The translations under genes were made by a program, and so were the position numbers. A stretch of 64,000 nt of DNA from a virus: IMG/VR virus record IMGVR_UViG_3300032323_000630, positions 7,279 to 71,278 of that record; one strand, given 5' to 3'. Below are positions 31,901 through 64,000 of this stretch, piece by piece (the stretch's first letter is position 1; every line of letters starts with the position of its first letter). The notes under the pieces were generated by a model. The model searched no databases and had not been told where the DNA came from. It worked only from the letters and a program-made list of their open reading frames with translations.

Positions 31901-34900
31901 AAAAGTTCTATTAACATTAATAAGATTAGGGGACAACGGTTTTCCGTCGCCTTTGAGTATCTGGTAGTCGTAGAACCCGTCAAGGATATTATCAGCTACT
32001 CCCACTGGTACGGTGATATCTAATTTCTGTGCAGCAGGACTAAGCGTGATCAACGAACCTACGGCCCAATTTTGTCTAGTCCAGAACATGAATTCTTTAC
32101 AGCTGGTCAGCCAATCCTGCGCCACTTGATTTTCAGGATCGTATCTGTCAAATTTAAATCCTTGAGATTTGAGATACTGTTCGTAGCCCAATAAGAAATC
32201 AACAACTTCCTGTACGGAAATTAATTTAGTTCCATAACTTAATTTTTTAACAGCTCTATTGAAATTTCTTCTTCTAAGTGCTTCGACTGCGCCTATCAAC
32301 GGCAGTTTAGGTAATTTTTTCCATAGGGTGTTATCAAACTCAGTAGTTGATGTATGTGTCTTCAATGCTCTATAGAACGTGTTGTTTAGTCTGCAGATCT
32401 GTCCATTATTGAATTGTTTACCTGCTTCCCAATTAATAAATGTCTCTGATACCCCGCCTACAGATATCAACGGATCCTTTTGATTAGGCGCTACGTCAGT
32501 ATAATTGAAATACGGTATTACATCGTCATAGCCTGTGATTATCCAGCCGCCTGATGTTTTTTCTACAATAACTCCGCTGTATGTTACGTTGGAAATCGGT
32601 GTGCTAACATTGAAAATTATATCATAATTTTCGGGAGGAACAAATACACTGCTGCTGACTGACTTAGGACTCTTAGAATCTAGTAGGTACCTTTGTTGTC
32701 CTTTATCAACGAATCCGCTTAATCGTGTAGTTAATCTAACATCGATGTTTTTTATTTTTCTTGTAACTTCGTCTAGAGATATGCCAATAGACTTTGCATA
32801 ATCTATAAGATAGTTTAATAAGCCAGCAGTTTGGTCGCTGCCCGCCGAAGGCATTACGATATCGTCTAGTGTGATAAAGAGGTCGGTATTTTTATGTACA
32901 GTTTGACCTAACTTGTTTAATTTAACTCTAGACCTGTCAAGACTGTCACTGATGAAATCAAACGGTTTCATCAAGCACATTGCTATAGTAATAGCGAACG
33001 GCCATTCTGAGCTGGCTCGCCAGGCGTATTCAACCGGAGCGATATCTCCGAGAACGAACGATCCTTGATTATTGATTAGTGCGAAGTCTCCAGCGAGATT
33101 TGAATCCAACGGACTTATAAGTTTCCCATCACCGTCAACTGGTATGTGTGTCATCAACGATGGGCGTTTATATCTATCGTAGATACCCTTACGATCGCCT
33201 TGGCGAATAACGCCGTCACGTAGATCTTCCCATAAAATTAAATTGTATTTTGTATAAGGTGCTGGGCCATATTCATCTTCCCACCATGCTGGCATTTCTG
33301 AGAAACCTAACATTTCCCATGGACAGCGATGTGGGCGATCTGTGTCGTAGAACCATTTATAAACTCCTCTCCAATAGCCAGGTAAGCTCTGCAGACCTGT
33401 AGGATCGGTCATGTTGGTATAGGTGTATGTAAAACTGTTTTCTGAATCAAATGTTGTATTAGCAGTATAGCTAATATTTGTGTTCTGTATCCACTTTAAA
33501 AATTCTTGATTTACCACAGCATCAAGTTGTGGCTTGGTATACAACGCATTTCCGTAATATCCGCCAATAACTTTATCAATGTTAAACAAAGACTCGTTAT
33601 ATTCTTGTTTGATATTATTGTAAATTCGATATTCTAATTCTAATAATAACTCGTCTCGGAAATCACCGTAAGCTAGTGTAATACTACCATCATGCCCTTG
33701 AATTACTGTTTTAGGTTCTAGATAAGTATCATCAACAAATTGCATAGGAGTATACTTTTTGTATAATCCGATAGCTGTTGGTGTTGTAGGAATGTAATTT
33801 GTTGCCGTTGATACATATTCTCTAATTTCAATGACGTCACCTACAGCTAAAGATTTTTTAATAATCACAAAACCAAATGTAGAATTAAACTCATAATCTT
33901 TGGTATTCAATAACTGTTGATCGTTTACGTAAACATATACAGCTCGACGACTTAATTCTGTTAATGAAAATTTTGCAGACAATGCAAACGTGTTGATCCC
34001 ATCATCCTCTACAACGTATCTGATATCAGTATGAGCTCCGCTGCCAATCATGTCGCTGTCAGCAAACACACTTTCTATAGTTTTTGTTCTGGTTAGATCT
34101 GCGATGATATCATCTACAAAATCTGCAATATTATCATTGTACTGCAATGCCGTGGCTCTATCTAAGAAATTATTTTTAAAATTAGTATATGATTTCTTAG
34201 CATATTGCAAGGCTTTAATAATATTATTCGTTTTATCACATAGAATGCTTACTGCAATTGGTGCGATGCCCGAATGGTGCATGTATCTGGTGCTGTAGGT
34301 GTTCCAAGACTTTCCAAATTCGTCTAAAGGAATATCTCGCAGGTCGTTGAGACCAGGAACAACTCCTGACCAATTAGGATTAAAATCTAAACCAGAATTT
34401 AGGTGGTCAGCTGCTTGACCTAATGTCCATTCTGCTACCGGTGCGTTGAGAGGATTTTTTTCCAGTCCCATAGGCATTTCATAATATCCAGTATCGGGTG
34501 GAGCATCAGTTACTAGTTTTATAGATACCACATCATTCACAGCAAATGTTTTTTCACTGAAAATAAATTTGTTAAAATCTCGTGTATATGGACTTTTAAA
34601 TATCCCACCGTTGAGATAAAATCTAATTTCGAAATCGCTGTCACTTGCTATTTCGTTCCAATCAATAATAGTAAGCGTGAGAGTATTAGTAGCTTCCGCT
34701 ATTCTTACACTATCAATCAATGGCATTAAATATTTTCGAGAAGTATCAATCCAGCCGTTGCCCCAACCTCCGTAGCCTCCAGAATCATCTAGAAAATAGA
34801 ACCCAGTAGCCACTCGTCGAGTTACTGTGTTAGTACCTTCTTTAAATCTAAAGGTATCAGTGTCCCAGTTAAAATGGAACAGCAAATCTCCGATGTTATT

Positions 34901-36841
34901 AATATTAAGATAGGTTAATGGGAATCCTAATTTAGAATCTACTGGACCTGTTCCAACTTTATATCCTGCAATCTCAGTGCCAGCAAATGTACTTTCTGGA
35001 TATCTGTCTGGGTCGGCAAAACTTATGCCGTCGGCATCGTATACATCAAATAAAGGTGGTTGATTTACTTTAGTCTTAGCTTGGCTCTTGACCCAGGCAG
35101 TTCCGTTAAAATGGAACATTAGCCCTGCATTTTTTGAGCCTCGACGAATTAGTACACATTCGCCTTCTGCAGAATCACTATCTGCAGTTTCTACTAAATG
35201 AATTTGTTTTTTATTATTATGTGTAATAAATTCTATTTGATAAATTTTATTATTTGTTAAGTTGTCTTGGTCGGCGACAACCAGGATTCTCGCACCTTCA
35301 AACAATGTCTCACCATCGATACTGTATCCCGCACTGCCTTCAATGCTAGACAACACATCTATAGTATAATCGTCAATATAGTCAACCGTTTGTTTTGCAA
35401 TACGCCCATGATTGAATAATTGTAGACCAGGAAGGAATTCAAAAATTGGTCTCTTGGCTCTAGCACTTTCGGAAGCTGAAAAATCTTCTCCTCGCAACTG
35501 ATGTGCATATTCTAGAACCTGCCTATGAAACCATCGATTATAACGCGACCACGGATTTAGATCAATACTATCTCTACTAACAACAATGTAATCTTGTTCT
35601 GTGGGGTATGTGCTAGCATCATCGAACGGCTCTGTATCGAATCCCGCATTATCAAAAACTATTTCTGGTACAGTTTTCGATAGTCTAGGAATAACTAAAT
35701 CGTCCCAGTTGACTACGTTAATTTTAACGCCTACGTTTTCAATTACCCAACGTCCTGTTGCATATTTTGCCGGTGTTACATTACCTTTAAATTCTACAAT
35801 TAATCCTGTGGTAAATTTAACACCGTTGCCGCTAGTGTATGTTTCTTTGCCTATGATTTCTTTTTCAACATCGATAAAAGTATTTGATTCGATGTTAGCA
35901 ATCATAATACGACCAAACCGGTCTGGCGTTATTTTACCTTGATAAAATAACACATCTGGAGCATCGTACGGAACATTGAATTCCATAAAACCATTTTCAA
36001 CACCGTTATTAGTTACACCGATGTTATAATCAAGAGCTGTTCCTGTAGATATATTTTCTATATATTCCCAATTACCATTTTCTGTAGATATAGTGCTGTC
36101 GTCACCTTGTAAAATATCAACTGTGGCTTTCCATAATTTACCATCGTAAACTGCAAATTGTCCTGCGGCATAGGCTTTGTTAGGATTGAATAGCAAGGAA
36201 CCAGTGTCATAGTTGGATCTAATCGTAAATCCCTCTTGTGGGCAATTAACTCTAAACTTATAAGTCTGACCTCTGTATAAAGTCAGTGTAGGATTATTAG
36301 TGTAGCCGTCTGGGCTTAGAATAAATGAATTTACTCCTAACTTAACACCGTATTGGCTTCCAGCGACACGAGGTTGGCCGAAGACATCAACCGGTGGTGG
36401 CCCCTCTGGTACCCAATAGCACTCGAGGAAGTTTACATATTTGTCGCAGTGCTTAGGAGGATTCCAACTGTAGTGGTCCTGCGATGTTATTAGATTATCA
36501 CGTTCGTCATTGTTGCCAAAGAATTTTAATTGATTTTTAAAATCAATAAAATCATAAAATTTTTCTACAGATCCATCGTCTTTTTTAACAACGACTCCTG
36601 GTTCTAATTGGTATCGACTTCTTAGTGTGTTGTCAGAATCTAGATAAACATCTGGGCTAAGATATGTTTTTCCGTATCTACGACCAATGTATCCTACTAA
36701 TTTTTCTAATGATCCCGGCTGAACCAACGGATCAACTACCGCAGACATAAACTTGTCATTGGTGTCTGATCTAAATATCGATGGTAACAGTTCTACTGTT
36801 TTTCTAATCGGTAAACCGCTTTTTGGAAATTTATCTGCCAT
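22979..36841 (-). CDS. Giant (4620 aa) baseplate wedge/structural protein, in the gp7 position
   Basis: Uninterrupted ORF directly after the gp6 homologue. N-terminal ELLPSIFRSD, FG-GAP-like repeats, aromatic CBM5/12-like modules, G.GY..P.V.I.G.GTGA.A repeats and EVKPYRT. Confidence 0.75.
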   Translation of the reverse strand: MADKFPKSGLPIRKTVELLPSIFRSDTNDKFMSAVVDPLVQPGSLEKLVGYIGRRYGKTYLSPDVYLDSDNTLRSRYQLEPGVVVKKDDGSVEKFYDFIDFKNQLKFFGNNDERDNLITSQDHYSWNPPKHCDKYVNFLECYWVPEGPPPVDVFGQPRVAGSQYGVKLGVNSFILSPDGYTNNPTLTLYRGQTYKFRVNCPQEGFTIRSNYDTGSLLFNPNKAYAAGQFAVYDGKLWKATVDILQGDDSTISTENGNWEYIENISTGTALDYNIGVTNNGVENGFMEFNVPYDAPDVLFYQGKITPDRFGRIMIANIESNTFIDVEKEIIGKETYTSGNGVKFTTGLIVEFKGNVTPAKYATGRWVIENVGVKINVVNWDDLVIPRLSKTVPEIVFDNAGFDTEPFDDASTYPTEQDYIVVSRDSIDLNPWSRYNRWFHRQVLEYAHQLRGEDFSASESARAKRPIFEFLPGLQLFNHGRIAKQTVDYIDDYTIDVLSSIEGSAGYSIDGETLFEGARILVVADQDNLTNNKIYQIEFITHNNKKQIHLVETADSDSAEGECVLIRRGSKNAGLMFHFNGTAWVKSQAKTKVNQPPLFDVYDADGISFADPDRYPESTFAGTEIAGYKVGTGPVDSKLGFPLTYLNINNIGDLLFHFNWDTDTFRFKEGTNTVTRRVATGFYFLDDSGGYGGWGNGWIDTSRKYLMPLIDSVRIAEATNTLTLTIIDWNEIASDSDFEIRFYLNGGIFKSPYTRDFNKFIFSEKTFAVNDVVSIKLVTDAPPDTGYYEMPMGLEKNPLNAPVAEWTLGQAADHLNSGLDFNPNWSGVVPGLNDLRDIPLDEFGKSWNTYSTRYMHHSGIAPIAVSILCDKTNNIIKALQYAKKSYTNFKNNFLDRATALQYNDNIADFVDDIIADLTRTKTIESVFADSDMIGSGAHTDIRYVVEDDGINTFALSAKFSLTELSRRAVYVYVNDQQLLNTKDYEFNSTFGFVIIKKSLAVGDVIEIREYVSTATNYIPTTPTAIGLYKKYTPMQFVDDTYLEPKTVIQGHDGSITLAYGDFRDELLLELEYRIYNNIKQEYNESLFNIDKVIGGYYGNALYTKPQLDAVVNQEFLKWIQNTNISYTANTTFDSENSFTYTYTNMTDPTGLQSLPGYWRGVYKWFYDTDRPHRCPWEMLGFSEMPAWWEDEYGPAPYTKYNLILWEDLRDGVIRQGDRKGIYDRYKRPSLMTHIPVDGDGKLISPLDSNLAGDFALINNQGSFVLGDIAPVEYAWRASSEWPFAITIAMCLMKPFDFISDSLDRSRVKLNKLGQTVHKNTDLFITLDDIVMPSAGSDQTAGLLNYLIDYAKSIGISLDEVTRKIKNIDVRLTTRLSGFVDKGQQRYLLDSKSPKSVSSSVFVPPENYDIIFNVSTPISNVTYSGVIVEKTSGGWIITGYDDVIPYFNYTDVAPNQKDPLISVGGVSETFINWEAGKQFNNGQICRLNNTFYRALKTHTSTTEFDNTLWKKLPKLPLIGAVEALRRRNFNRAVKKLSYGTKLISVQEVVDFLLGYEQYLKSQGFKFDRYDPENQVAQDWLTSCKEFMFWTRQNWAVGSLITLSPAAQKLDITVPVGVADNILDGFYDYQILKGDGKPLSPNLINVNRTFQNITVETADTEEGIYYLKLYYVLKEHVTIFDDRTVFNDILYDKTTGYRQERIKSQGFRTVDWDGDYTSPGFLFDNVNIQAWQPFTDYRLGDIVSYRSNNWTSIVNQLGVEEFNPTNWTKLDSTPEKQLVANFDYKINQFEDYYDVASAGIGENQRALARHSVGYQTREYLQNLSEDPVTQFRLYQGFIREKGTANAVTKIFNKLSRTGNAIELNEEWAFRVGRLGGLDQLKEIEISLEKDKFQINPQPMLVVNNLPNNTLDQYYRILGTDFSIQPIPFTTNINPVSLEAEPVRTAGYVKTDQIDFVVTSRDDILNIDIAAMIENDHIWVTFDNYTWSVLRYNQSPIITIRDVVKSGTAVTITLDRRHNFVIDDIVGFKEITNLEGFFRITAVGSLTITIAVSASAQDPLFDNSTIAYIYTLTPARFESYTALDFQNAAILKDGSKLWIDNNGSNSWEVIQKKKQFVSKQITEYGTTSPLSAGSKVLYIDNIKQTISSIPGSGYVMAYIETSTGLALKQIIAPPMGFESGVLGSFGRSMAVSPDNRWLIIGSPNASGIRSNYKGTFNPSATYLTDDIVVYAGKLWKSLITNAGDGSSISISSNGWAPATSIPAFTAGTAAGYTNQGMISIYEWEKQQWTLKSSFVSPRPNNDELFASDITIGQSGNTYYMAVSAVESLDGRGRVYLYTYNGTEWTHLENQNYKGIYDPVSTAYYAGEIVWYDSALWMCLEDSTYGDGSTISVESSGWQRMDPISTHNSLPTNIAIDDDGSTLGNLLETQVGILSNSQLAELIKIGDKFGTSIAMNRDASVLAVGAPFSDGQYFPNFRGNWRPDREYIEGEVVRYQNGYHRLVQRFGESLDSTTRSYNEAPDVGQPWDSVGDSTGESSGKVFIYQRSQTGIYELKQTITSGSMIDLNDIDSGITPIAAGDQFGWSIDIDYSGTTLLVTSPKADINFQNQGSAYILRTDSFASIEYRLKQKLESFEMYPNEYFGQSGSISYTGERIAIGANNSPYSLPTRFDITEGTTFDQSRTRFVDRKGYSGAVYVFEKKDDNYFLVEKLESTLSPFESFGFSVDCSQSAIAVGSPDYIAPATHGAVLAYDGPKTGIVRLFRKDSSVNSWNTLQTQNPVVDITAIRSIELYDTVNNVKIQDIDYVDNAKLKILNVAEQEIKFKTIYDPAVYTIGTDEQVVDTTTAWSERYVGELWWNLSTAKWKYYEQGDAAYRTGNWNSLAEGASIDVYEWVETLLLPNEWAAIADTNDGIAQGISGQPLYPNNTVYSVKELINPNTGLATSTLYYYWVKNKTIIPANKPSRRIAASEVSSSIENPAGSGIAFIALIDSDKFLTYNFNSILASDTAVLNIQYLKNKKQLNAIHNEYQLLTEGLADSLPTTSLEAKWIDSLIGTDIVGNVIPDPKLPAKQKYGINFRPRQGMFIDRRSILKITIDKINTFLKKEPFLDIVPYDALNDFETAPADALNLYDQAVDNQVDLITIGTARVRQAVLSVNIVDNQVDNITIVNSGFGYKKAPPVVIEGDGTGATASVTVDNQGRITSVTVINKGRKYTSATAVVRQFSVLVNADETTTGFWSIYAWDDTRKTFYRSRTQAYDTRKYQFSADWWASGYGSTSRIVKEVAYFTLIPSVEVSIGDLIRITEYGSGSWAVFEKIADTNAYFFANYKLVGRGAGTFQLSESLWNNELSGIGFDNTASFDTKLYDIDSSKELRIILDNIKNKLFIGEYAVEWNTLFFTAVRYAFAEQQYIDWAFKTSFLNATHNVGPLEQKLNYKNDNLSSFQEYIQEVKPYRTTVREYLSRYSASEPLGQATTDFDLPPTFSTAEGKIIPISKSNEEIQSYPWRWWLDNQGYGITAIEVSNAGAGYTTVPNVLISGNGTGATARAFVSNGAISGFEIVDQGTGYTKTPTITLVGGNSTTQASAIAILGDSKARTFDITVKFDRLSKQGTYIDLSQEQVFTATGFTAVFDLNYAPTRDKSKITITKDNQVVLNDEYIINLYTSTTDTYSLLKGKIIFVTVPEPGSVIKVTYEKNDSLLDAINRIEKFYEPSSGMRGKELSQLMTGIDFGGVQIQGTTFDVTGGWDALPWFTDNWDSVDAAADYYVVCDGSTTEVTLPFVPAEGQEINIYLKRAGIRIARDIDTLGPPTAPTVVLTESTQAPTAVRIDSPYFVLGDDSSTSVNPNSEMPTFIGDGVTNTISIGPYIQTNVGDILIFRPVESDGSVTITDNNLLDTYLSGGTFSATGSTATKIAPNTIDGMYAIARGTLSEEISIDGDKFISPDQVPAPEENIPGQVLDSVSIKVFNNTLSGAAPLQSRTLVSNGITKIYDIDLEILESRSLLVYVNKIKQENSADSTLNYTIDFITKQIEFATAPAAGAVIEIIAVGLGGITLLDYQEFIADGATSLFLTSANYSDTSAVLVTVNGESQDVGFTDSTGVVTTAGKTLIRFGTAPSYRDIVKIICVGSAADIDSTGLPIVRVNRQSLQFEGSTRSFDLDTFVNLSRASALSSMIVELNGTALRGVDTVYTVYDGITEDFVLGVDPEEPAGAILSQNIKVFVNDELKTVIQDYTYNGTTKTVAISSAILTEGDIVKIENDFRAQYSIVDNNLVIDPEVVMTYDDIIDVTWFSEYPSMGIVSDEYTGGRVNYYLPQAPLAASYIWVYKNGVRLTKDQDYYVSLPRSVLYLTADSTANDLIKVVVFGSDIYRLPSAFEIHKDMLNIYHFKRYSIGAVELTKDLNYYDQEITVNDGSLLGEPIVSRNVPGVITVNNERIEYNSKVGNVLSKLRRGSFGTAIAAVHSAGSAISDAGPQENVPYNETQDRQDFVSDGSSLLIGPLDFVPAQGTRATWYRSTIPTTHSACDQVEVFAAGRRLRKDPLSVYDEALGASSPTADIQLEAEFAVDGVASYIRLTAAIPAGTRISVIRRIGKVWYDRGETTASSGESLLENATPMAEFIAKRTTKLPE

Positions 36842-47172: not shown

Positions 47173-48183
47173 ATGAGTCTATTTAAAAAGGTAGCCTGTT
47201 TCACTGACATTCACTTTGGGCTAAAGAGCGGTAGTAGAGTCCATAATCAAGATTGCGAAGATTTCGTCACTTGGTTTTGCGAAACCGCGAAGCGGGAAAA
47301 TTGCGAAACAGCAATTTTCTTAGGGGATTGGCATCACAATCGATCTACCACTGATGTCAGCACAATGAACTATACCGTTTCAAACCTTGAACGGTTAAGT
47401 CAGAGCTTTGAAAAAGTCTATTTCATTCTAGGCAATCACGATTTGTTCTACAAAGACAAACGTGAAATCAACTCTATTGAGTTCATGCGGTTGTTTCCAA
47501 ATGTGATTCCAATTAAAGAAACACTTACCGAAGGCGATGTAACTATCATGCCTTGGTTAGTTGGTGAAGAATGGCGCAACGTACCTAAGATTAAAAGTCG
47601 ATATGTGTTTGGACATTTAGAATTACCCCTGTTCTATATGAACGCTATGGTACAGATGCCGGATCATGGTCAGTTACAGGGCAATCACTTTGTGAATCAA
47701 GAGTATGTGTTCAGTGGGCACTTTCACAAACGTCAAAGCAAAGGCAACATCACGTATATCGGCAATGCTTTTCCGCACAACTATGCAGATGCAGGCGACG
47801 ATGAACGTGGTATGATGATACTAGAGTGGGGTGGGAAACCAGAGTACTTAACTTGGCCCGGACAACCGATATATAGAACATACAAATTAAGTCAGATCAT
47901 CGACACACCAGATAAACTTCTGCGTGAGAAGATGCATTGTCGTGTTACTATCGATTTACCAATTAGTTTCGAAGAAGCCAACTTTATCAAAGAACAATTT
48001 ATTCCGCAGTACAATCTGCGTGAGTTAATGTTAATCCCTGAAAAAGTTCAAGTAGAATCTAATGCTACTCCTATCGACATCAACTTTGAATCAGTTGATA
48101 CGATCGTTATGAATCAGATCAATGCCATTGAAAGCGATACCTACGACAAAGCACTACTATTGAATATCTATAACGACCTATGA
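47173..48183 (+). CDS. gp47: Recombination endonuclease subunit (Mre11/SbcD-like)
   Basis: DIHFG, GDWHH, GNHD, FGHLE and SGHFH metallophosphoesterase motifs. Confidence 0.92.
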   Translation: MSLFKKVACFTDIHFGLKSGSRVHNQDCEDFVTWFCETAKRENCETAIFLGDWHHNRSTTDVSTMNYTVSNLERLSQSFEKVYFILGNHDLFYKDKREINSIEFMRLFPNVIPIKETLTEGDVTIMPWLVGEEWRNVPKIKSRYVFGHLELPLFYMNAMVQMPDHGQLQGNHFVNQEYVFSGHFHKRQSKGNITYIGNAFPHNYADAGDDERGMMILEWGGKPEYLTWPGQPIYRTYKLSQIIDTPDKLLREKMHCRVTIDLPISFEEANFIKEQFIPQYNLRELMLIPEKVQVESNATPIDINFESVDTIVMNQINAIESDTYDKALLLNIYNDL

Positions 48184-49958
48184 TAAAAATTAAAAATCTA
48201 ACAGTACGCAATTTTATGAGCGTGGGCAATCAAACCCAGGCCATAGACTTTGACAAGGGTCAGTTAACTTTGGTCTTAGGTGAGAACCTGGATCTAGGCG
48301 GTGATGACAGTGGTGCTCGTAACGGCACAGGTAAAACCACAATCATTAATGGTTTGAGTTATGGTATCTATGGCCAGGCCCTGACTAATATCAAACGTGA
48401 TAATTTAATCAATAAGATCAATTCAAAAGGTATGTTATGTACCGTTACATTCGAGAAGGATGGCGTTGAATATCATATTGAACGTGGTCGCAAACCTAAC
48501 TTATTGAAATTTAGTATTAATGGGCAAGAACAAGACCTAGAAGACCTAGATGAATCGCAAGGTGACAGCCGAGAAACACAAAAGTCTATTGAAGAAATGA
48601 TCGGAATGAGTCACGAGATGTTTAAGCATCTGGTAGCACTTAATACCTATACTGAACCGTTCTTGGCATTGAAGCCTAATGATCAACGAAGCATTATCGA
48701 ACAGTTGTTAGGTATTACCTTGTTAAGCGAAAAAGCAGAGAATCTCAAGGAGCAACTACGTCTGACCAAGGATGCTATTTCTACAGAAAACACACGCATT
48801 GAGACTGTGAAGGCTTCCAACGAACGAATTCAGCAGAGCATAGACTCTCTAGAGCGCAAACAGAAGCTATGGGACGAACAAAAAGAAACTAGTATAGAGA
48901 ACCTTAGAAAAAGCATCGATAGACTCAGTACGATTGATATTGATGTTGAGATTGCCGCACAAAAATCTCTAGTTGAGTGGACTGCTAACAAAAAAGAACG
49001 TGATAACTTAGTTTCGTTGATAGCAAAGCAAACAGCTACCTTAGAAAAAGAACAAAAGTTATTAGACAAATTAGAAACAGAATTAACTGCACTGGCTGAT
49101 CACAAGTGTCACAGTTGTGGACAGGATCTACATGATTCTAAACATGAAGACATGGTCACTGCTAAAAACAAACAGGCTGAAGAAAGCCGCACCAGTCTCG
49201 CAGAACATCAAACAGAATTATCAGCATTTAACGAAGCATTAGAGCTTGTAGGCGAATTAGGTGCGTGTCCGCAGGTACACTATGACAGTTTAGAGCAGGC
49301 GTTGAATCATAAAAACAGTTTAGCGGTATTAGAAAAAGATGTTGAAACAAAACAAGCAGAAACTAATCCCTATCTAGAGCAAATTGAAGAACTTAAAAAT
49401 ACTGCGGTACAGGAAATCAGTTGGGATCATGCCAATGACTTGGTGCGTGTCAAAGAACATCAAGAATTCTTATACAAACTGTTGACCAACAAAGACAGTT
49501 TTGTACGTAAACGTATTATTGATCAGAACTTGGCATTCTTGAATCAACGGTTGACCTATTATTTGGACAAGATTGGGTTGCCGCACATTGTAGAATTCCA
49601 AAACGATCTATCAGTTATCATTACACAACTAGGACAAGATCTAGACTTTGATAACTTGTCACGTGGAGAACGTAATAGGTTGATATTATCTATGTCGTGG
49701 GCATTCCGAGATGTATGGGAGAACCTATATCACAGCATCAACTTATTGTTTATTGATGAGTTAGTAGACTCAGGCATGGACAGTAGCGGTGTTGAATCCA
49801 GTATCGCTGTGTTAAAACGCATGACACGTGAGCGTGATAAGAATGTATTCTTAATTTCGCACAGAGATGACTTGACCAGTCGTGTGAATCATGTGCTTAA
49901 AGTCATTAAAGAGAATGGCTTTACCAGTTACAGTAACGATATTGACATTGTAGAATGA
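48180..49958 (+). CDS. gp46: Recombination ATPase subunit (Rad50/SbcC-like)
   Basis: NFMSVGN, NGTGKTT Walker A, coiled coil with CHSCGQ zinc hook, LSRGE signature, LFIDE and ISH. Confidence 0.92.
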   Translation: MIKIKNLTVRNFMSVGNQTQAIDFDKGQLTLVLGENLDLGGDDSGARNGTGKTTIINGLSYGIYGQALTNIKRDNLINKINSKGMLCTVTFEKDGVEYHIERGRKPNLLKFSINGQEQDLEDLDESQGDSRETQKSIEEMIGMSHEMFKHLVALNTYTEPFLALKPNDQRSIIEQLLGITLLSEKAENLKEQLRLTKDAISTENTRIETVKASNERIQQSIDSLERKQKLWDEQKETSIENLRKSIDRLSTIDIDVEIAAQKSLVEWTANKKERDNLVSLIAKQTATLEKEQKLLDKLETELTALADHKCHSCGQDLHDSKHEDMVTAKNKQAEESRTSLAEHQTELSAFNEALELVGELGACPQVHYDSLEQALNHKNSLAVLEKDVETKQAETNPYLEQIEELKNTAVQEISWDHANDLVRVKEHQEFLYKLLTNKDSFVRKRIIDQNLAFLNQRLTYYLDKIGLPHIVEFQNDLSVIITQLGQDLDFDNLSRGERNRLILSMSWAFRDVWENLYHSINLLFIDELVDSGMDSSGVESSIAVLKRMTRERDKNVFLISHRDDLTSRVNHVLKVIKENGFTSYSNDIDIVE

Positions 49959-50185
49959 CAACAGAAAGCCACGACAAGATGATTGCTGCTTTTCAGGAAT
50001 ATTTTAAGTGGCAGGAACGATTTGAATACAAAGGCTCAGACGAAGCAGGCATCAAGGCACGCTATTGGCTATCAGAAATACGCAACGAGGCAAGTAAAAG
50101 GCGAATGGAAATACAAGAAAAACGAGAGGCTCGTAAGAAAACCAGAAAAGGCCAGCTAGGCAGACCTCCTAAACTAACTAAATGA
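49955..50185 (+). CDS. Small basic protein resembling histone-H1-like Hc1 family DNA-binding proteins
   Basis: KG..AG.KAR..L.EI......RR.EIQE pattern and a Lys/Arg-rich tail (GRPPK). Recognised by pattern only. Confidence 0.5.
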   Translation: MTTESHDKMIAAFQEYFKWQERFEYKGSDEAGIKARYWLSEIRNEASKRRMEIQEKREARKKTRKGQLGRPPKLTK

Positions 50186-50620
50186 GTGCAATGGACGTAT
50201 CAAAATCAACTAGTAGAAGAAATACCTGAAGGCTATATTGGCTTTGTTTATATCATCACGAATCTACAATCCGGGCAGAAGTACATAGGCAAGAAATTAG
50301 CACAATTCAAACGCACTAAACCACCACTCAAAGGCAAAAAACTTAAAAGAAGAAGCACAGTAGAAAGCGATTGGCGCGAATACTGGGGTTCATCTGATAG
50401 GTTAAACGCAGACGTCCAAACATTAGGTCCGGAAAACTTCACAAGAGAAATACTATATCTTTGCAAATCCAAGGCAGAACTAAGTTATTTAGAAGCAAGA
50501 GAGCAATTTGAACGTAGAGTTTTAGAAACTGACGACTATTATAATGGCATTATAAACGTTAGAGTAGGCGGTTCAAATATACTTAGACAGCGTCTTTTAG
50601 AACAATCAAAGGCAAAATAA
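50186..50620 (+). CDS. Free-standing GIY-YIG nuclease (Seg-like catalytic domain only)
   Basis: GFVYIITN....KYIGKK, YWGSS, F.REIL, catalytic-type E (YLEA) and YYN. GTG start directly after the upstream stop. Confidence 0.85.
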   Translation: MQWTYQNQLVEEIPEGYIGFVYIITNLQSGQKYIGKKLAQFKRTKPPLKGKKLKRRSTVESDWREYWGSSDRLNADVQTLGPENFTREILYLCKSKAELSYLEAREQFERRVLETDDYYNGIINVRVGGSNILRQRLLEQSKAK

Positions 50621-51000
50621 AGCGGTTTTTTGGCTGGCGCAGGCCCAAGTTCGTGCGCTCTATACCTGGTCTACGTGTACTCAGGGACGGAAATCCATGC
50701 CGCAATGGTACTCAGCAACTACCCATTTGGATGAAGATCACTTATAAGACCTGTGATTTTGCTGTTTGAAAAGGAATAAAAGGGCAAAAAGAAGGGAGAG
50801 AAACCCTTAGGTTATTGCGTATGTTAGCGTATGCGTAATAATCCACCGTCATATTGACTGAGCTCGTGGTACCGGATGACCGCCACTGTAATGCTTTAAC
50901 GCTAGGTGTACTGTGCAACTCGCATAATGTTACATTCTTAACCCGTGTCTGGGTTAAGTGTGACTGAACAATCTGCATAATGCTAAAATGCTTCGCATTT
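50618..51000 (+). ncRNA. Candidate large structured non-coding RNA, family not recognised
   Basis: Only long ORF-free gap in the window. At least eight stem-loops, several of which depend on G-U pairs on the + strand (e.g. the 15-bp stem 50810-50843 and the stem 50929-50964). Confidence 0.55.
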
Positions 51001-51065
51001 ATAGTTCTTCACAACTTCGATATAATCCTAAGAAAGAAAAATGCTTTGAGCGATAGCGAAAAAGC

Positions 51066-51087
51066 AAATGAGCGTAAGCTCATTTTT
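51066..51087 (+). terminator. Intrinsic terminator-like hairpin AAATGAGC-GTAA-GCTCATTT followed by TT
   Basis: Perfect 8-bp stem with a GNRA loop and a T-run at the end of the non-coding region. Confidence 0.55.
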
Positions 51088-51095
51088 AATAAATA
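51088..51095 (+). promoter_or_regulatory. Putative late promoter AATAAATA
   Basis: 24 nt upstream of the ATG at 51120. Confidence 0.6.
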
Positions 51096-51119
51096 ACACA
51101 ATACATCATCGGGTCACAA

Positions 51120-52538
51120 ATGCGCATCGAACAATTATTAGAACAAAACAAATATAATTCACAAATGATCCTTAAAGAGTCTTGTGATGGGCTCACTACT
51201 GAACAACGAGTTATCGTAGAAGGCATTCATAATGAGTTATCACCTTTGTTAGAAGTGGCTCTAAGTGCTGATCAAATTAAAAACATCTTTCAATCTGTTG
51301 AAAAGAATGCTACCGCAGCTGGTGGTAATAGGACAGGATTAGGCCAAGGTGTAGATACAGTTCGACAAGTTGATACTGCGCTGAATAAGCTGGGCAAATG
51401 GCTGCAAGATACTTCTCCAGTTAAATCATTCGACACCAAGTTTGCACAATTAAAATCCAAAGTAGGTAAAAAGTTTCCGGAACTAGATAAAAAGCTCACA
51501 GGTATGGGCACATGGGCCAAGTCTAATCCAGGTAAGACCGCAGCAGTTATCGGTATACTTACTACACTGGCAGCTCTAGCAGGCGGTCCAGTTGGTGGTG
51601 CTATTGCTGGTCAGATTCTAAAAGGTTCCACAGAACTACTCAAAGGTGAAAAATTATCCACAGCAGTGGGCAAGGGTATGAAAGCTGCTGCCTACGGTTT
51701 CCTTGCAGGTAAATCACTGGAAGCCATTGGCGATATATTCAAAAGCGGACTAGAGTTTGTGGCAAATAAAATGTATCCAGGAGTAGTTAACTCAACCATG
51801 ATACACAACAATCAAGTGTTATGGAATGTTGACCTAGCTGCGCCGGATGCTGAAAAATTAAAAGTGTTGACGGATGCTTCTTCTAAAGCAATGTTTAACA
51901 ATGATCCCGATTATATAAACTTACTGAACAAAGCTTCAAAATTTGTCAGTGACACAGTAAACAAACCGGGCTACTATGATAAACTGGTCACTGACACTGC
52001 CGCAGCAGAAAAATTACTGTCAGCAGGTAATGCTGCTGCCACAGCCATACAGGGCTTTGGTGCTGCTGCTCAAGGAGCAGTTACAGCCAAGACTGGTGAG
52101 AAAAAAGAAAGTTATTATGTACAGGCTCGTTCACTAAGTGAAGGGCAGGTCTACATGTTGTTTAACAGAATTGAACAACTGAACGAAGGACCCGTGTGGG
52201 ACAAAGTTAAATCAGGTGCAGGTAAATTGGCTGCTGCTGCTAGTCAAAAGATTAGCACTGTGGGCACTAACCTAACAACAAAAATAACTGCTGATAAATT
52301 AAACTCAGCGTGGTCTAAAGCTGGAAGTCCTACAGATTCAGCAGCACTGGCTAAGTTTTTAAAAAGCCAAGGGGTTGACGATGCTGTGATATCGCAGACA
52401 TTCAAAGCAATGAAATTGAAAGTAGGTGACGCTGCTCAAACGGGCTATGCACAGGTAAGGTCACAACTGACACAGTTAAATACAAAACAGAAAAGACAAT
52501 TGGCAGCATATTTGCAAAAACAATTAGGAACCGCATAA
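51120..52538 (+). CDS. Putative internal head/ejection protein
   Basis: Late promoter, N-terminal MRIEQLLE, Ala/Gly/Lys-rich helices, hydrophobic segment AAVIGILTTLAALAGG and internal L.E sites. Confidence 0.5.
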   Translation: MRIEQLLEQNKYNSQMILKESCDGLTTEQRVIVEGIHNELSPLLEVALSADQIKNIFQSVEKNATAAGGNRTGLGQGVDTVRQVDTALNKLGKWLQDTSPVKSFDTKFAQLKSKVGKKFPELDKKLTGMGTWAKSNPGKTAAVIGILTTLAALAGGPVGGAIAGQILKGSTELLKGEKLSTAVGKGMKAAAYGFLAGKSLEAIGDIFKSGLEFVANKMYPGVVNSTMIHNNQVLWNVDLAAPDAEKLKVLTDASSKAMFNNDPDYINLLNKASKFVSDTVNKPGYYDKLVTDTAAAEKLLSAGNAAATAIQGFGAAAQGAVTAKTGEKKESYYVQARSLSEGQVYMLFNRIEQLNEGPVWDKVKSGAGKLAAAASQKISTVGTNLTTKITADKLNSAWSKAGSPTDSAALAKFLKSQGVDDAVISQTFKAMKLKVGDAAQTGYAQVRSQLTQLNTKQKRQLAAYLQKQLGTA

Positions 52539-53470
52539 TGAGAATTAATGAAATACTGGTAGAGTCAACCTTAGAAGAAGGCCCAATCTTAAACAAAATT
52601 GGCTCAGGCATTGGCAAAGCAGCAGGTACTGTGGCCAAGGGGGTTGGCGCGGTTGCAGGCGGTATTGCAGGTATACCTGGAGCAGTTAAAAAAGGATTTC
52701 AAGCAGGTAAGTCTACTGTAGCAGGCGGAGGTGACACAGATGCAGGCGGACAAGCAGCGCCAGCAGCATCGGGCGGAGCAGCGCCAGCAGCAGGAACTCA
52801 AGCTGCACCAGCTGCTAAACAACCAGGACTGTTGCAAAAAATTGGACAGGCTGCAGGCGATTTCAAAAAAGGATTCCAACAAGGGTCAGGTCAACCAGCT
52901 GAGCCGGCGGCACAAGCTCCAGCTGCAAATACCCAGGCTCCTACAGCAAATACCCAAGCACCGGCCCAGGCTCCGGCAGCAGGTGCACAACAACCAGCAG
53001 CAGCACCAACAGGTACTGCGTATGCCCAAGTTAAAGCCGGCGTCGACAAGTTAGATAAAAAAGGTAAGCAACGCATTCTTCAAGCATTGCAAAAAGAAGT
53101 AGGAACTCCGGCAGCAGCCGCACCTGCTGCCGCACCTGCAACTACTCCTAACCCAGCAGGACTTCAAGCTGGCGGTTCCGCACAAGGACAATCAACTGCA
53201 CCTGCAGATCCTAACGCAAATGCAGCACCTCCTGAGCCCGGTGATCAACGTTGGTACAATGACAGAGTTGGGCAATGGGGTTGGAAAGGCGCTAGCGGTG
53301 GATGGTCAGGCGATGAACAAGATATAGCACCAGCGGTTAAACCTAGAACTAAAAAATCAGTAAACATTTCGGGTAGCAAGAAAACTGTGCAACCGCAACA
53401 ACAAGTGGCTAGCAAAGAACCTAAAGGTAATATGGTAGCTGAAAGTTTTAGTATTTTTAGAAAACGATAA
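52538..53470 (+). CDS. Putative internal head protein, Ala/Pro/Gln-rich
   Basis: N-terminal MRINEILVE..LEEG, low-complexity linkers, and modules shared with the upstream ORF. Confidence 0.5.
   Translation: MRINEILVESTLEEGPILNKIGSGIGKAAGTVAKGVGAVAGGIAGIPGAVKKGFQAGKSTVAGGGDTDAGGQAAPAASGGAAPAAGTQAAPAAKQPGLLQKIGQAAGDFKKGFQQGSGQPAEPAAQAPAANTQAPTANTQAPAQAPAAGAQQPAAAPTGTAYAQVKAGVDKLDKKGKQRILQALQKEVGTPAAAAPAAAPATTPNPAGLQAGGSAQGQSTAPADPNANAAPPEPGDQRWYNDRVGQWGWKGASGGWSGDEQDIAPAVKPRTKKSVNISGSKKTVQPQQQVASKEPKGNMVAESFSIFRKR
52916..52960 (+). repeat. 21-nt imperfect tandem repeat encoding APAANTQ/APTANTQ
   Basis: gctccagctgcaaatacccag followed by gctcctacagcaaatacccaa. Confidence 0.6.
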
Positions 53471-59404: not shown

Positions 59405-59407
59405 ATA
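59400..59407 (+). promoter_or_regulatory. Late promoter TATAAATA (exact T4 consensus)
   Basis: Overlaps the portal stop codon. ATG at 59412. Confidence 0.7.
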
Positions 59408-59411
59408 CATT

Positions 59412-59660
59412 ATGCTTCTAAGAGAATTCATTTATTTCAACGACAACACAAACGACTTTGCAGTTGATCGTCGCTACGACAACAGCAAAGATTCATCAGT
59501 GGTTAAAAAAGGTGATACTCGTAAAATACGCTTAACGCTACGTCAGATCAATCAATTGAGACTGCAGGCAGAAGCACACGAAGCAGAATCTCAATCTGAG
59601 CTGGGTTTTATACAACAAATGTACGGAACCCCAATTGAACCTACAGAAGCAGCAGCGTAA
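59412..59660 (+). CDS. Small head-cluster protein (82 aa)
   Basis: ATG 59412 gives MLLREF..DTRK.RLTL.QIN.LR..MYG. The track's earlier start overlaps the portal and is unlikely. Confidence 0.65.
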   Translation: MLLREFIYFNDNTNDFAVDRRYDNSKDSSVVKKGDTRKIRLTLRQINQLRLQAEAHEAESQSELGFIQQMYGTPIEPTEAAA

Positions 59661-63099: not shown

Positions 63100-63110
63100 G
63101 GAGAACTATA

Positions 63111-64000
63111 ATGTCACAATTACTCGAGTCACGCTGGTCGGAAACCAAAGACGCCCTTTTAGAAGGTCTTCAAGGTAACAAGCGCACAGTAATGGCAACA
63201 ACTCTTGAGAATACCCGCAAGTATTTGTCTGAGTCTGCCACAGCTGGTGCTACATCCGCTGGCAACGTAGCAACACTAAATCGTGTGATCCTTCCAGTGA
63301 TCAGACGTGTAATGCCAACCGTTATTGCTAACGAATTAGTTGGTGTACAACCAATGACTGGCCCAGTTGGTCAGATCCATACTCTACGTGTACGTTACAG
63401 CGATACATTCGCAGGTAGTGTAGGTGGAGCAACAACAGCTGGTGAAGAAGCGTTAAGCCCATTCAAGATTGCTGAAGGGTATTCTGGTACAACAGTTGGT
63501 AAACCAGCTTCAACAGCAGCATTAGAAGGCGTTGCTGGTAACAAGTTAAGCATTCAAATCTTGAAACAAACAGTTGAAGCTAAAACACGTAAGCTATCAG
63601 CTCGTTGGACATTCGAAGCAGCACAAGATGCACAAGCCCAACAAGGTATTGACATCGAAGCTGAGATCATGGCAGCTCTTGCACAAGAGATTACTGCTGA
63701 GATCGACCAAGAAGTTCTACGTAGCCTAGCTACATTGTCTTCAACAGTATTAACATACGACCAAGCTGCTGTTTCAGGTACAGCTACATTCGTTGGTGAC
63801 GAGCATGCTGCTTTAGCTGTTCAAATCAACCGTGCTGCTAACTTGATCGCTCAGCGTACACGTCGTGGTGCAGGTAATTGGGCTGTTGTTTCCCCAACTA
63901 CATTGACACTACTACAATCTGCTACTACAAGCGCATTTGCTCGTACAACAGAAGGTACATTCGAAGCTCCTACAAACACTAAGTTTGTTGGTACATTGAA
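63111..64000 (+). CDS. gp23: Major capsid protein (partial, runs off the window)
   Basis: Not in the ORF track. AAGGAG RBS, then MSQLLESRW..LPVIRRVMP.VIANELVGVQPMTGPVGQI..LR, KTRKLSARWTFEAAQD and EITAEIDQE. Confidence 0.95.
   Translation, partial: MSQLLESRWSETKDALLEGLQGNKRTVMATTLENTRKYLSESATAGATSAGNVATLNRVILPVIRRVMPTVIANELVGVQPMTGPVGQIHTLRVRYSDTFAGSVGGATTAGEEALSPFKIAEGYSGTTVGKPASTAALEGVAGNKLSIQILKQTVEAKTRKLSARWTFEAAQDAQAQQGIDIEAEIMAALAQEITAEIDQEVLRSLATLSSTVLTYDQAAVSGTATFVGDEHAALAVQINRAANLIAQRTRRGAGNWAVVSPTTLTLLQSATTSAFARTTEGTFEAPTNTKFVGTL

What the first reader, a model, noticed from the sequence alone, without database searches (positions are those of the whole stretch)
50186..51000. Minimal GIY-YIG nuclease immediately followed by a ~380-nt densely base-paired, strand-specific non-coding element: candidate nuclease-RNA system
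Seen: this is the only ~500-nt ORF-free gap in an otherwise packed genome, and it starts at the nuclease stop codon. It carries consecutive stems: GGCGCA/UGCGCU (50636-50659), CCUG/CAGG (50665-50685), CCAU/AUGG (50695-50708), CAGCA/UGCUG enclosing AGAUCAC/GUGAUUU (50713-50764), AAGGG/CCCUU (50792-50808), a 15-bp stem with five G-U pairs (50810-50843), GUCA/UGAC, GUGG/CCAC (50866-50886), and GUUACA..CUUAACCC/GGGUUAAG.UGUGAC (50929-50964). UAAAGCG (50618) may pair with UGCUUUA (50892) to close the domain. The G-U pairs would be A-C mismatches on the other strand, which argues for a + strand RNA co-transcribed with the nuclease. Known: phage GIY-YIG homing endonucleases (I-TevI, Seg) normally carry a C-terminal DNA-binding region, and this 144-aa protein is essentially the catalytic domain alone. 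Inference: the RNA may supply specificity or scaffolding, by analogy with HEARO/omega RNAs, or it may be an unrelated phage ncRNA or replication-origin transcript.
Basis: partly seen in the sequence, partly recalled or inferred. Interest (0 to 1): 0.85.

Follow-up and report, generated by a model that had tools for sequence, protein, structure and literature searches.

The report
Extended Polynucleobacter-1 twin-box phage RNA
The gene-free stretch behind a small nuclease gene of this uncultured freshwater T4-like phage encodes a real, doubly knotted non-coding RNA of about 460 bases whose first third is an orphan motif catalogued in 2010; the nuclease looks like an exchangeable neighbour rather than the RNA's partner, and the RNA's job is still unknown.

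Summary
Window 50621-51119 is non-coding and folds on the + strand only (z -3.0 against 0.0).

It is only partly new. Window 50632-50767 is Rfam RF01718, the Polynucleobacter-1 RNA (94.9 bits, cut-off 37). The following ~320 nt match no Rfam family. They are conserved and covary in over 100 viral contigs, and they contain two pseudoknots plus two always-identical 7-nt "twin boxes".

A nuclease gene lies upstream in every testable phage locus:
- GIY-YIG directly upstream in 165 loci.
- An unrelated PD-(D/E)xK nuclease in 8.
- GIY-YIG separated from the RNA by one extra gene in 1.

Four results argue against a nuclease-RNA system:
- The nuclease ORF is swapped as a cassette with breakpoints at its own ends.
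- The same small GIY-YIG family occurs in 784 phage records. Two cyanophage loci and phage Melnitz (66% identical) were inspected, and none carries the RNA.
- Full-length RNA homologues sit in bacterial genomic islands with no nuclease upstream.
- RNA divergence and box words track the nuclease no better than gp46.

Best reading: an autonomous structured RNA beside a homing-endonuclease-like slot. Its function is unknown. This scan has found the same RNA before on other DNA.

The parts
47173..48183 (+). gp47-like (Mre11/SbcD-type) phosphoesterase, first gene of the operon context
   Evidence: Pfam Metallophos E 1.6e-08. Homologue upstream of the RNA in 81 of 120 pattern-chosen loci.
48180..49958 (+). 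gp46-like (Rad50/SbcC-type) ATPase
   Evidence: Pfam AAA_23 and SMC_N. Best cultured-phage relatives are annotated as recombination endonuclease subunit or SbcC-like. Present upstream in 105 of 120 loci.
49955..50185 (+). 76-aa ORF of unknown function
   Evidence: No Pfam or PHROG hit. Conserved as a protein in 62 of 120 loci.
50186..50620 (+). 144-aa GIY-YIG nuclease, catalytic domain only; behaves as an exchangeable cassette
   Evidence: PF19835 SegE_GIY-YIG E 5e-36, residues 3-123. phrog_447 E 3.3e-39. Nucleotide identity to 7 other phages rises to 77-91% over the ORF only. A metatranscriptome contig diverges exactly at 50620.
50632..50767 (+). RNA domain 1, equal to Rfam RF01718 Polynucleobacter-1
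   Evidence: cmscan 94.9 bits (cut-off 37), model positions 1-141 of 141. Helices 1-6 are 96.7-100% paired with compensatory changes.
50792..50808 (+). Short hairpin AAGGG/CCCUU after an A-rich linker
   Evidence: Helix 7: 80.8% paired, 4 of 5 pairs with changes on both sides.
50811..50842 (+). Long hairpin; its loop (50824-50829) forms pseudoknot 1
   Evidence: Helix 8: 12 of 12 pairs compensated, 96.0% paired.
50900..50905 (+). 3' strand of pseudoknot 1, pairing with loop 50824-50829
   Evidence: Helix 9: 6 of 6 pairs compensated, 98.4% paired. Found by a helix scan.
50848..50896 (+). Junction core: pseudoknot 2 (50848-52 with 50876-80) crossing helices 50860-63/50893-96 and 50866-70/50882-86
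   Evidence: Helices 10, 11 and 12 are 95.6%, 98.0% and 100% paired, with 3 of 5, 4 of 4 and 2 of 5 pairs compensated.
50922..50928 (+). Twin box 1 (GCAUAAU)
   Evidence: Identical to box 2 in all 116 distinct full-length RNAs. Mutual information equals the full column entropy.
50937..50958 (+). Hairpin between the boxes (CUUAACCC/GGGUUAAG)
   Evidence: 87.7% paired in 116 sequences with several pair types. Helix 14 is 88.2% paired.
50975..50981 (+). Twin box 2 (GCAUAAU)
50986..51000 (+). Small hairpin with a CUUCG loop
   Evidence: 84.5% paired with AU, GC, CG and UA types. Absent (gapped) in about a fifth of sequences.
51042..51087 (+). 3' module: hairpin X (51042-47/51061-66) and terminal GNRA-loop hairpin (51066-73/51078-85) with a U run
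   Evidence: Hairpin X is 83.5% paired. The terminal hairpin is 72% paired with compensations. 87 of 116 sequences pass my hairpin-plus-T test. The consensus scan called this hairpin as a terminator on the - strand only, so + strand termination is inferred.
51088..51096 (+). AAUAAAUA, similar to the T4 late promoter word (consensus recalled), ahead of the next gene (ATG at 51120)
   Evidence: ATAAATA lies within 80 nt of the RNA end in 68 of 110 distinct loci. The promoter role is inferred; the T4 consensus is recalled, not tested.

Best explanation
Window 50621-51087 is the gene of an autonomous, highly structured non-coding RNA of about 460 nt. It is a full-length form of the orphan Rfam motif Polynucleobacter-1.

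Transcription and structure:
- It is made on the + strand, at least partly by read-through from the upstream gp47-gp46-orf76-nuclease genes, and it ends at a terminal hairpin.
- It folds into a catalogued 5' domain and an uncatalogued core held together by two pseudoknots.
- The core displays two identical 7-nt words on either side of a hairpin.
- I infer that these words are read by an outside partner, either two copies of a complementary heptamer or a two-site protein, and that the RNA acts in trans.

The nuclease: the GIY-YIG gene in front of the RNA is not its partner. It is a free-standing, homing-endonuclease-like cassette, replaceable by other alleles or by a PD-(D/E)xK nuclease. It occupies the slot next to the most conserved DNA of the neighbourhood, and the RNA gene may be the conserved flank or target of that slot.

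Shown: the RNA, its structure, its distribution and the mosaic behaviour of the nuclease. Inferred: trans action, the reading of the boxes, and homing.
For: RNA identity and strand.

Conservation of all ~460 nt: blastn finds the 3' two-thirds at 66-86% identity, colinear, in over 100 of 120 loci. See also alignment A1.

Structure: 72 of 98 pairs have changes on both sides, and 0 of 500 shuffles reach the observed scores.

Twin boxes: 116 of 116 distinct RNAs carry identical cores. In the regex count, 156 of 159 true instances are identical and 3 differ in the last letter only.

Independence from the nuclease:
- Cassette-like identity profile. A contig keeps the nuclease but switches to another RNA variant at 50620.
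- A PD-(D/E)xK nuclease (PF24608, E 1.1e-27) fills the slot in 7 of 114 testable pattern-chosen loci and 1 of 60 testable gp46-chosen loci.
- Melnitz has a nuclease at 66.4% identity, but no RNA in the locus (nhmmer, E up to 10) or in the 141-kb genome (RF01718, E up to 1).
- Cyanophage homologues lie in varied contexts with no RNA-sized gap.
- 4 of 151 bacterial genomes of one order carry RF01718. The 3 with readable context share the layout DUF6641 gene, then a ~500-nt RNA with twin boxes AGCGAAA or GGCGAAA; in 2 of the 3 a small tyrosine recombinase follows, and the third locus ends before one could appear. None has a nuclease upstream.
- Partial correlation of RNA distance with nuclease distance is 0.14-0.18, against 0.15-0.19 with gp46.
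- Box words change at least 25 times on the nuclease tree and at least 24 on the gp46 tree.

Not a 5' leader: the nearest downstream ORF is on the opposite strand in 13 of 110 loci and absent in 16 of 110.

Transcription: RNA-library contigs from 4 studies cover the region, and 3 bridge the stop codon.
Against: - Occupancy of the slot is total: 174 of 174 testable phage loci have a nuclease gene upstream, and 173 have it directly adjacent. This is unusual for a selfish homing gene, which should be patchy. It would also fit a needed nuclease or a functional tie to the RNA.
- The partial correlation between RNA and nuclease distances, though small, exceeds all 500 permutations. Linkage alone could produce this.
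- In the islands the RNA again lies near a small catalytic-domain-only DNA enzyme (212-221-aa tyrosine recombinase). A recurrent link with DNA-cutting or DNA-joining enzymes is therefore not excluded.
- No partner for the boxes was found.
- No discrete RNA ends are known, because contigs cannot show them.
- No cleavage or homing has been shown.
- The nuclease lacks the DNA-binding domain that is typical of characterised Seg and I-TevI enzymes (typical architecture recalled).
Confidence: 0.6

Rival explanations
1. Nuclease-RNA system. The RNA binds the minimal GIY-YIG nuclease and gives it target specificity or a scaffold, or regulates it.
For: - Direct adjacency in 173 of 174 testable phage loci, with the RNA starting about 10-15 nt after the stop codon.
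- The nuclease is a catalytic domain only.
- Contigs bridge gene and RNA.
- Twin 7-nt words could act as guides.
Against: - The nuclease is exchanged independently of the RNA.
- An unrelated fold fills the same slot.
- The nuclease family is widespread, and the three members inspected lack the RNA.
- The RNA occurs without the nuclease in bacterial islands.
- Box words are not tied to nuclease alleles. For example, the window and L010/L053 share the 92% allele but carry GCAUAAU and AGAUAAU.
- One phage has a 279-aa gene between nuclease and RNA.
Confidence: 0.1
2. Cis-acting operon-end element. The structured RNA is a 3' UTR that stabilises or regulates the gp47-gp46-nuclease transcript, for example by blocking 3' exonucleases or controlling nuclease translation.
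For: - It lies at the 3' end of a same-strand gene row and ends in a hairpin.
- Read-through contigs exist.
- The upstream position is fixed, while insertions occur elsewhere in the row.
Against: - About 460 nt with two pseudoknots and co-varying twin words is far more than a stabiliser needs.
- In bacterial islands the upstream gene is divergent, so there the RNA is at the 5' end of its transcript.
- The upstream gene is exchangeable.
Confidence: 0.12
3. 5' leader or riboswitch of the downstream gene. This is the 'cis-reg: probably' entry for Polynucleobacter-1 in the table of Weinberg et al. 2010.
For: - The table of PMC2864571 marks the motif as a likely cis-regulator (passages read).
- A same-strand ORF follows in 81 of 110 loci, at a median of 34 nt.
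Against: - A terminal hairpin and a late-promoter-like word lie between the RNA and the next ATG.
- Downstream genes are variable: homologues of the 472-aa protein occur in only 7 of 120 loci.
- The nearest downstream ORF is convergent in 13 of 110 loci and absent in 16 of 110.
Confidence: 0.05
4. The nuclease is not selfish. It is a needed structure-specific recombination nuclease of the gp46/47 operon, displaced non-orthologously by a PD-(D/E)xK resolvase-like enzyme, and the RNA is merely the next gene.
For: - Total occupancy.
- The PD-(D/E)xK alternative matches phrog_244, labelled RusA-like Holliday junction resolvase.
- It sits in a recombination operon.
Against: - Cassette-like recent exchange confined to the ORF.
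- Homologues in cyanophages and Melnitz sit in unrelated, hyperplastic contexts.
- PHROG labels are annotations, not tests.
Confidence: 0.13

Closest known systems
Polynucleobacter-1 RNA motif (Rfam RF01718; Weinberg et al. 2010, Genome Biol 11:R31, PMC2864571)
   Same: Window 50632-50767 matches the whole model (94.9 bits). It has the same helices and the same habitat: Burkholderiales and fresh water in the paper's table, and lake metatranscriptomes here.
   Different: The catalogued motif is 141 positions long. Here it is the 5' third of a ~460-nt RNA, and the rest (two pseudoknots, twin boxes, 3' hairpins) matches no Rfam family at E up to 10. The paper gives no function. Only its table and passages were read, and its supplements were not available. 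A search for the name found that paper alone.
HEARO / omega RNAs of IscB and TnpB (RNA-guided nucleases)
   Same: A structured RNA lies next to a small nuclease gene on a mobile genome.
   Different: The nuclease here is GIY-YIG or PD-(D/E)xK, not a RuvC/HNH enzyme. There is no obligatory co-occurrence and no Rfam HEARO match in the evalue scan. No guide-target match was found. The IscB/TnpB biology is recalled from knowledge, not tested here.
Free-standing homing endonuclease genes of T4-like phages (seg, mob; different HEG families replacing each other at one locus, as I recall from Sandegren, Nord and Sjoberg 2005; paper not read here)
   Same: GIY-YIG domain of the SegE family. ORF-sized mosaic identity. 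An unrelated nuclease in the same slot. Family members in varied intergenic contexts.
   Different: No DNA-binding domain. The slot is never empty in 174 testable loci. Cleavage and homing are untested.
Large ornate phage-associated RNAs (GOLLD, ROOL; recalled)
   Same: Large, multi-pseudoknot, phage-borne RNA with unknown function.
   Different: No sequence or structure match (Rfam gathering scan of the whole window). It is smaller, and the twin-box feature is, as far as I recall, not described for those RNAs.

Membership tests
Rfam RF01718 Polynucleobacter-1 | Covariance-model score at or above the gathering cut-off (37 bits) over the full model | tested here: met
   94.9 bits, model 1-141 of 141, + strand.
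Rfam RF01718 Polynucleobacter-1 | Model helices kept by compensatory changes in relatives | tested here: met
   Helices 1-6 are 96.7-100% paired, and 19 of 29 pairs have changes on both sides.
RNA-guided nuclease systems (IscB/TnpB with omega/HEARO RNA) | Nuclease of the RuvC (with or without HNH) IscB/TnpB family | tested here: not met
   Pfam gives only PF19835 GIY-YIG. The alternative occupant is PF24608 PD-(D/E)xK.
RNA-guided nuclease systems (IscB/TnpB with omega/HEARO RNA) | Nuclease and RNA always occur together | tested here: not met
   Nuclease without RNA: Melnitz whole genome and cyanophages. RNA without nuclease: 3 bacterial islands.
RNA-guided nuclease systems (IscB/TnpB with omega/HEARO RNA) | A variable guide segment that matches a target | tested here: inconclusive
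   The twin boxes are variable, but no complement is enriched within +-3 kb (40 own hits against 47.75 for control words) or in the 64-kb window. About 80% of the phage genome is not available (CheckV 20%).
Free-standing GIY-YIG homing endonuclease (Seg-like) | GIY-YIG catalytic domain | tested here: met
   PF19835, E 5e-36.
Free-standing GIY-YIG homing endonuclease (Seg-like) | C-terminal DNA-binding domain | tested here: not met
   144 aa, with the domain over residues 3-123. No PDB relative at E up to 1.
Free-standing GIY-YIG homing endonuclease (Seg-like) | Mobile, patchy distribution with ORF-sized mosaic boundaries | tested here: inconclusive
   Mosaic boundaries are present and contexts vary in other phages. 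Patchiness is absent, since the slot is filled in 174 of 174 loci.
Free-standing GIY-YIG homing endonuclease (Seg-like) | Site-specific cleavage of nuclease-less alleles and gene conversion | not testable with these tools
   Needs mixed-infection or in vitro assays.
Group I intron carrying a homing endonuclease ORF | Rfam group I intron match and a split host gene | tested here: not met
   No intron family at E up to 10 in 50400-51300. gp46 is full length, and the RNA is followed by a hairpin and a new gene start.

The most novel reading that the evidence does not exclude
The twin-box RNA is a guide or bridge for small DNA enzymes that lack their own DNA-binding domains. In phages these are GIY-YIG or PD-(D/E)xK nucleases, and in bacterial islands a 212-221-aa catalytic-domain-only tyrosine recombinase. 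Its two identical 7-nt words would pair with the same short core in two DNA partners and so programme cutting or joining. This would be a new class of RNA-programmed recombination or homing.
Probability: 0.04. Interest if true: 0.95.

Novelty: new variant of a known kind. Interest (0 to 1): 0.55.

Why it matters
The orphan 141-nt Rfam motif, listed in 2010 as a probable cis-regulator, is in fact the head of a ~460-nt, doubly pseudoknotted RNA.

- The RNA is a fixed feature of a large clade of uncultured freshwater and estuarine T4-like phages.
- It is also present on bacterial genomic islands.
- RNAs of this size and structural complexity are few, and most proved to be ribozymes or large machines.
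- Two words that always change together within one RNA point to a specific but unknown reader.

The finding also gives a clean natural example of nuclease-cassette exchange next to a conserved RNA gene. A cultured host-phage pair would make the function directly testable.

Tried and rejected
- tRNA or tmRNA: none in the window.
- Other Rfam families in 50400-51300 at E up to 10: only two chance-level hits, Bp1_162 at 18.7 bits and SNORD58 at 14.3 bits, both far below their cut-offs.
- Cultured phages: blastn (distant mode) with window 50186-51119 and with the divergent RNA of L195 found no match in 50,697 phage records.
- PDB relatives of the nuclease: none at E up to 1.
- Partner for the twin boxes. 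No third covarying column lies inside the RNA; the next best mutual information is 0.29-0.57, against 0.98 and 1.07 for the two most variable twin positions. There is no enrichment of the own-word complement within +-3 kb. The word or the complement of its 12-nt context is not enriched in the window: 5 hits against 4.0 expected, 11 against 12.3, and 25 against 33.4.
- Genome contigs pattern scan: 8 hits, of which 7 were chance matches; only L127 reached the RF01718 cut-off.
- Inserts between gp46 and the nuclease in other loci: by the look of their sequences they are accessory genes (oxygenase-like, hydrolase-like and others), not further nucleases. I did not run them through Pfam.
- Metatranscriptome depth was higher over the nuclease gene than over the RNA. 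Contig depth cannot rank genes, so I draw nothing from it. Uncovered parts likewise say nothing.
- Sigma-70-like sites at 50960-50989 and 50998-51026 lie in a stretch that is gapped in most relatives, so I do not count them as conserved promoters.
- The first RNAalifold run on A1 missed the pseudoknots and the 3' hairpins. My helix scan with loose criteria gave many chance helices, and only those with long runs and several pair types were kept.
- Literature: 'Polynucleobacter-1' finds only the 2010 paper. 'structured RNA' + 'GIY-YIG' + 'phage' + 'covariation' finds none. The Melnitz papers were seen as a search listing only. Supplements of the 2010 paper, which hold the motif's alignment and gene contexts, could not be seen and may already mention phage-like neighbours.
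Full report
WHAT IS THERE. The window is part of a 71-kb IMG/VR viral contig (CheckV completeness 20%). It comes from a T4-like phage. On the + strand it carries:
- a gp47-like phosphoesterase (47173-48183)
- a gp46-like ATPase (48180-49958)
- a 76-aa ORF (49955-50185)
- a 144-aa GIY-YIG nuclease (50186-50620; PF19835, E 5e-36, domain over residues 3-123)

The next real gene starts at 51120. The 499 nt between are the largest ORF-poor stretch of the window. Other gaps are 348, 295 and 230 nt. A 78-aa minus-strand ORF at 50742-50978 is the only long frame inside the stretch. I regard it as spurious but did not test it formally.

The + strand folds better than its shuffles (z -3.01; 0 of 100 as good). 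The - strand does not (z 0.02; 53 of 100).

I aligned the window with 64 non-redundant relatives, all under 92% identical (A1). I then counted a structure of 98 pairs in 19 helices on that alignment:
- 88.3% of cells are paired, against 75.7% in shuffles.
- 72 pairs have changes on both sides.
- The covariation score is 0.374, against 0.152 in shuffles (0 of 500 reach it) and 0.055-0.101 when partners are slid by 1-3 columns.

Two are not:
- The proposed closing helix UAAAGCG/UGCUUUA is paired in 60.7% of cells, and its 3' strand belongs to a well-supported helix.
- The outer GUUACA/UGUGAC stem holds in only 69.3% of cells.

Helices 18 and 19 were one base out of register, which was my slip. 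In the right register the terminal hairpin (51066-73 with 51078-85) is 72% paired with compensations such as GC 55 / AU 44.

IT IS PARTLY KNOWN. Rfam release 15 places 50632-50767 (+) in RF01718, the Polynucleobacter-1 RNA. The match scores 94.9 bits against a cut-off of 37 and covers the whole 141-position model.
- The family comes from Weinberg et al. 2010 (PMC2864571).
- Its table lists the motif as a probable RNA, a probable cis-regulator, switch unknown, from Burkholderiales and fresh water or estuary. I read the table and passages but not the supplements.
- A full-text search for the name finds that paper alone.

WHAT IS NOT CATALOGUED. The next ~320 nt match no Rfam family at E up to 10. 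They are nevertheless conserved, colinear, at 66-86% identity in over 100 of 120 viral loci. They contain:
- a short hairpin (50792-50808)
- a 12-bp hairpin (50811-50842; all 12 pairs compensated)
- pseudoknot 1, between that hairpin's loop and 50900-50905 (6 of 6 pairs compensated; 98.4% paired)
- a junction of two helices crossed by pseudoknot 2 (50848-52 with 50876-80; 95.6% paired)
- a hairpin (50937-50958) flanked by two identical 7-nt words
- a small CUUCG-loop hairpin
- a variable A-rich spacer
- two 3' hairpins

The last hairpin is followed by a U run in the window. 87 of 116 relatives pass my hairpin-plus-T test. The consensus scan lists this hairpin as a terminator on the minus strand only, so termination on the + strand is an inference.

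THE TWIN BOXES. Box 1 (50922-50928) and box 2 (50975-50981) both read GCAUAAU.
- In 116 distinct full-length RNAs the two cores are identical within each RNA. The words differ between RNAs: AGAUAAU, GCAUAAU, GGAUAAU, GAAUAAU, AGAUGAU and GGAUGAU.
- Mutual information between twin positions equals the full column entropy (0.98, 1.07, 0.26 bits).
- A regex count over all loci gives 156 of 162 identical. Of the 6 others, 3 lie outside the RNA and 3 differ only in the seventh letter.
- The words change at least 24 times on a gp46 tree of 91 phages (shuffled mean 46.8; the minimum possible is 5).
- I noted the boxes from the alignment (note) before reading earlier notes of this scan, which name the same feature.

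I found no reader for the boxes:
- No third covarying column exists inside the RNA.
- The own-word complement is not enriched within +-3 kb (40 hits against 47.75 for other words).
- Nothing above chance appears in the window.

THE NUCLEASE LINK.
- 106 have a GIY-YIG homologue ending about 60-80 nt before the pattern, which places the RNA start about 10-15 nt after the stop codon.
- 7 have instead a 171-172-aa PD-(D/E)xK nuclease (PF24608, E 1.1e-27; phrog_244).
- 1 (L060) has the GIY-YIG gene followed by an extra 279-aa ORF and then the RNA.
- 6 have under 110 nt of upstream sequence and cannot be judged.

gp46-chosen set (78 further loci, picked by gp46 similarity alone at 62-94% identity):
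- 60 reach far enough, and all 60 have a nuclease followed by the RNA (59 GIY-YIG, 1 PD-(D/E)xK).
- The other 18 end within 141 nt of the nuclease gene.
- In 7 of the 60 only the 3' half of the RNA is recognised. RF01718 was not found at its cut-off in the 6 of these that were scanned (L204 was not). The uncatalogued part therefore reaches further than the catalogued one.

WHY I DO NOT READ THIS AS A NUCLEASE-RNA MACHINE.
1. Cassette behaviour.
   - Against seven phages whose gp46, orf76 and RNA are 30-72% identical to the window, identity jumps to 77-91% exactly over the nuclease ORF.
   - L024 shares flanks and RNA domain 1 at 83-85% but has a 53-74% nuclease.
   - One lake metatranscriptome contig follows the nuclease to 50620 and then continues into a different RNA variant.
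2. An unrelated nuclease fold fills the same slot.
3. The nuclease family stands alone elsewhere.
   - tblastn finds it in 784 of 50,697 phage records, and its PHROG profile is 148 long.
   - The best cultured relative is Methylophilales phage Melnitz (66.4% identity). Its nuclease gene lies behind a ribonucleotide reductase gene with a 148-nt gap downstream.
   - Melnitz has no nhmmer hit in the locus and no RF01718 hit in its 141-kb genome.
   - Homologues in P-HM1 and S-SRM01 sit in other, varied contexts.
4. The RNA stands alone elsewhere.
   - 4 of 151 bacterial genomes of one order (drawn around the genome titled Oxalobacteraceae bacterium MsE-6) carry RF01718 above cut-off.
   - The three with readable context share a layout: a divergent DUF6641 gene, then a ~500-nt ORF-free RNA with domain 1, the 3' hairpins and twin boxes reading AGCGAAA or GGCGAAA. 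In two of them a 212-221-aa tyrosine recombinase follows. The third locus ends before one could appear.
   - None has a nuclease upstream.
5. RNA divergence correlates with nuclease divergence no better than with gp46 (partial r 0.14-0.18 against 0.15-0.19). Box words fit the nuclease tree no better than the gp46 tree (25 against 24 changes).

WHAT SPEAKS THE OTHER WAY.
- The slot is never empty, which is odd for a purely selfish gene.
- The small partial correlation with the nuclease exceeds all 500 permutations, though physical linkage may explain that.
- In the islands the RNA is again near a small, catalytic-domain-only DNA enzyme.

I therefore keep a 10% rival for a functional nuclease tie and a 4% bold reading in which the RNA guides or bridges such enzymes.

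NOT A 5' LEADER.
- The downstream gene is variable: homologues of the 472-aa protein occur in 7 of 120 loci.
- The nearest downstream ORF is on the same strand in 81 of 110 distinct loci, on the opposite strand in 13, and absent in 16.
- A late-promoter-like ATAAATA lies between the RNA and the next gene in 68 of 110 loci. The T4 consensus is recalled.

TRANSCRIPTION.
- 19 RNA-library runs from 13 studies hold part of the stretch.
- I laid four of them, from four studies, as contigs. They cover the nuclease gene and the RNA.
- Contigs from three studies bridge the stop codon: 50507-50969, 50613-50870 and 50591-50737.
- This fits read-through transcription. Contigs give no ends, no strand and no levels, and DNA in the libraries is not excluded.

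VERDICT.
- The RNA is real and it is an extended form of a known orphan motif, so I class it as a new variant of a known kind.
- The nuclease is best read as a homing-endonuclease-like, exchangeable neighbour.
- Earlier follow-ups of this scan reached the same reading on other genomes. I tested the main points myself.

Noticed in passing
window 22979-36841 (- strand): A single ORF of 4,620 aa, followed by ORFs of 1,134 and 790 aa on the same strand. Probably giant structural proteins of a large phage.
   Followed up: no
window 52538-53470 (+): A 310-aa protein that is mostly Ala/Pro/Gln/Gly low-complexity repeats, directly after the 472-aa protein of unknown function. Neither has a known family; Pfam and PHROGs were tried for the 472-aa protein only.
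   Followed up: partly
L218 (G152:C1:24000-36000), upstream of its RNA: The gp46-like gene is interrupted after about residue 57 by some 1.4 kb, including a 352-aa ORF. The gene then resumes at residue 53 inside a 664-aa ORF. This looks like an intein or another mobile insertion in the ATPase gene.
   Followed up: no
L154:6007-6444: Natural deletion variant. The GIY-YIG ORF loses its last ~35 codons and runs straight into the 3' half of RNA domain 1, so both the nuclease end and the first ~90 nt of the RNA are missing. It could be a defective genome or an assembly artefact.
   Followed up: partly
L062:11183-11682: The RNA has an internal deletion from the 3' half of the long hairpin to the hairpin between the boxes, so box 1 is missing.
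   Followed up: no
L131, L215, L216 (bacterial genomes G001, G050, G003): The island version of the RNA always has a divergent DUF6641 gene upstream. In two of three cases it has a 212-221-aa tyrosine recombinase downstream that consists of little more than the catalytic domain. In G001 the island follows tolB-pal-ybgF and begins with a 460-aa integrase.
   Followed up: partly
L140, L189, L201, L206 between gp46 and orf76; L005, L034, L045, L064 between orf76 and the nuclease: The stretch between gp46 and the nuclease is a hot spot for inserted accessory genes (182-184-aa oxygenase-like ORFs, a 254-258-aa GDS-motif ORF, and radical-SAM-like ORFs). The nuclease-RNA junction stays intact. The family names are my reading of the sequences, not Pfam results.
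   Followed up: no
window 284-631, 59405-59634, 63100-63394: Three further ORF-poor gaps of 230-348 nt. The Rfam gathering scan of the whole window found nothing in them.
   Followed up: no
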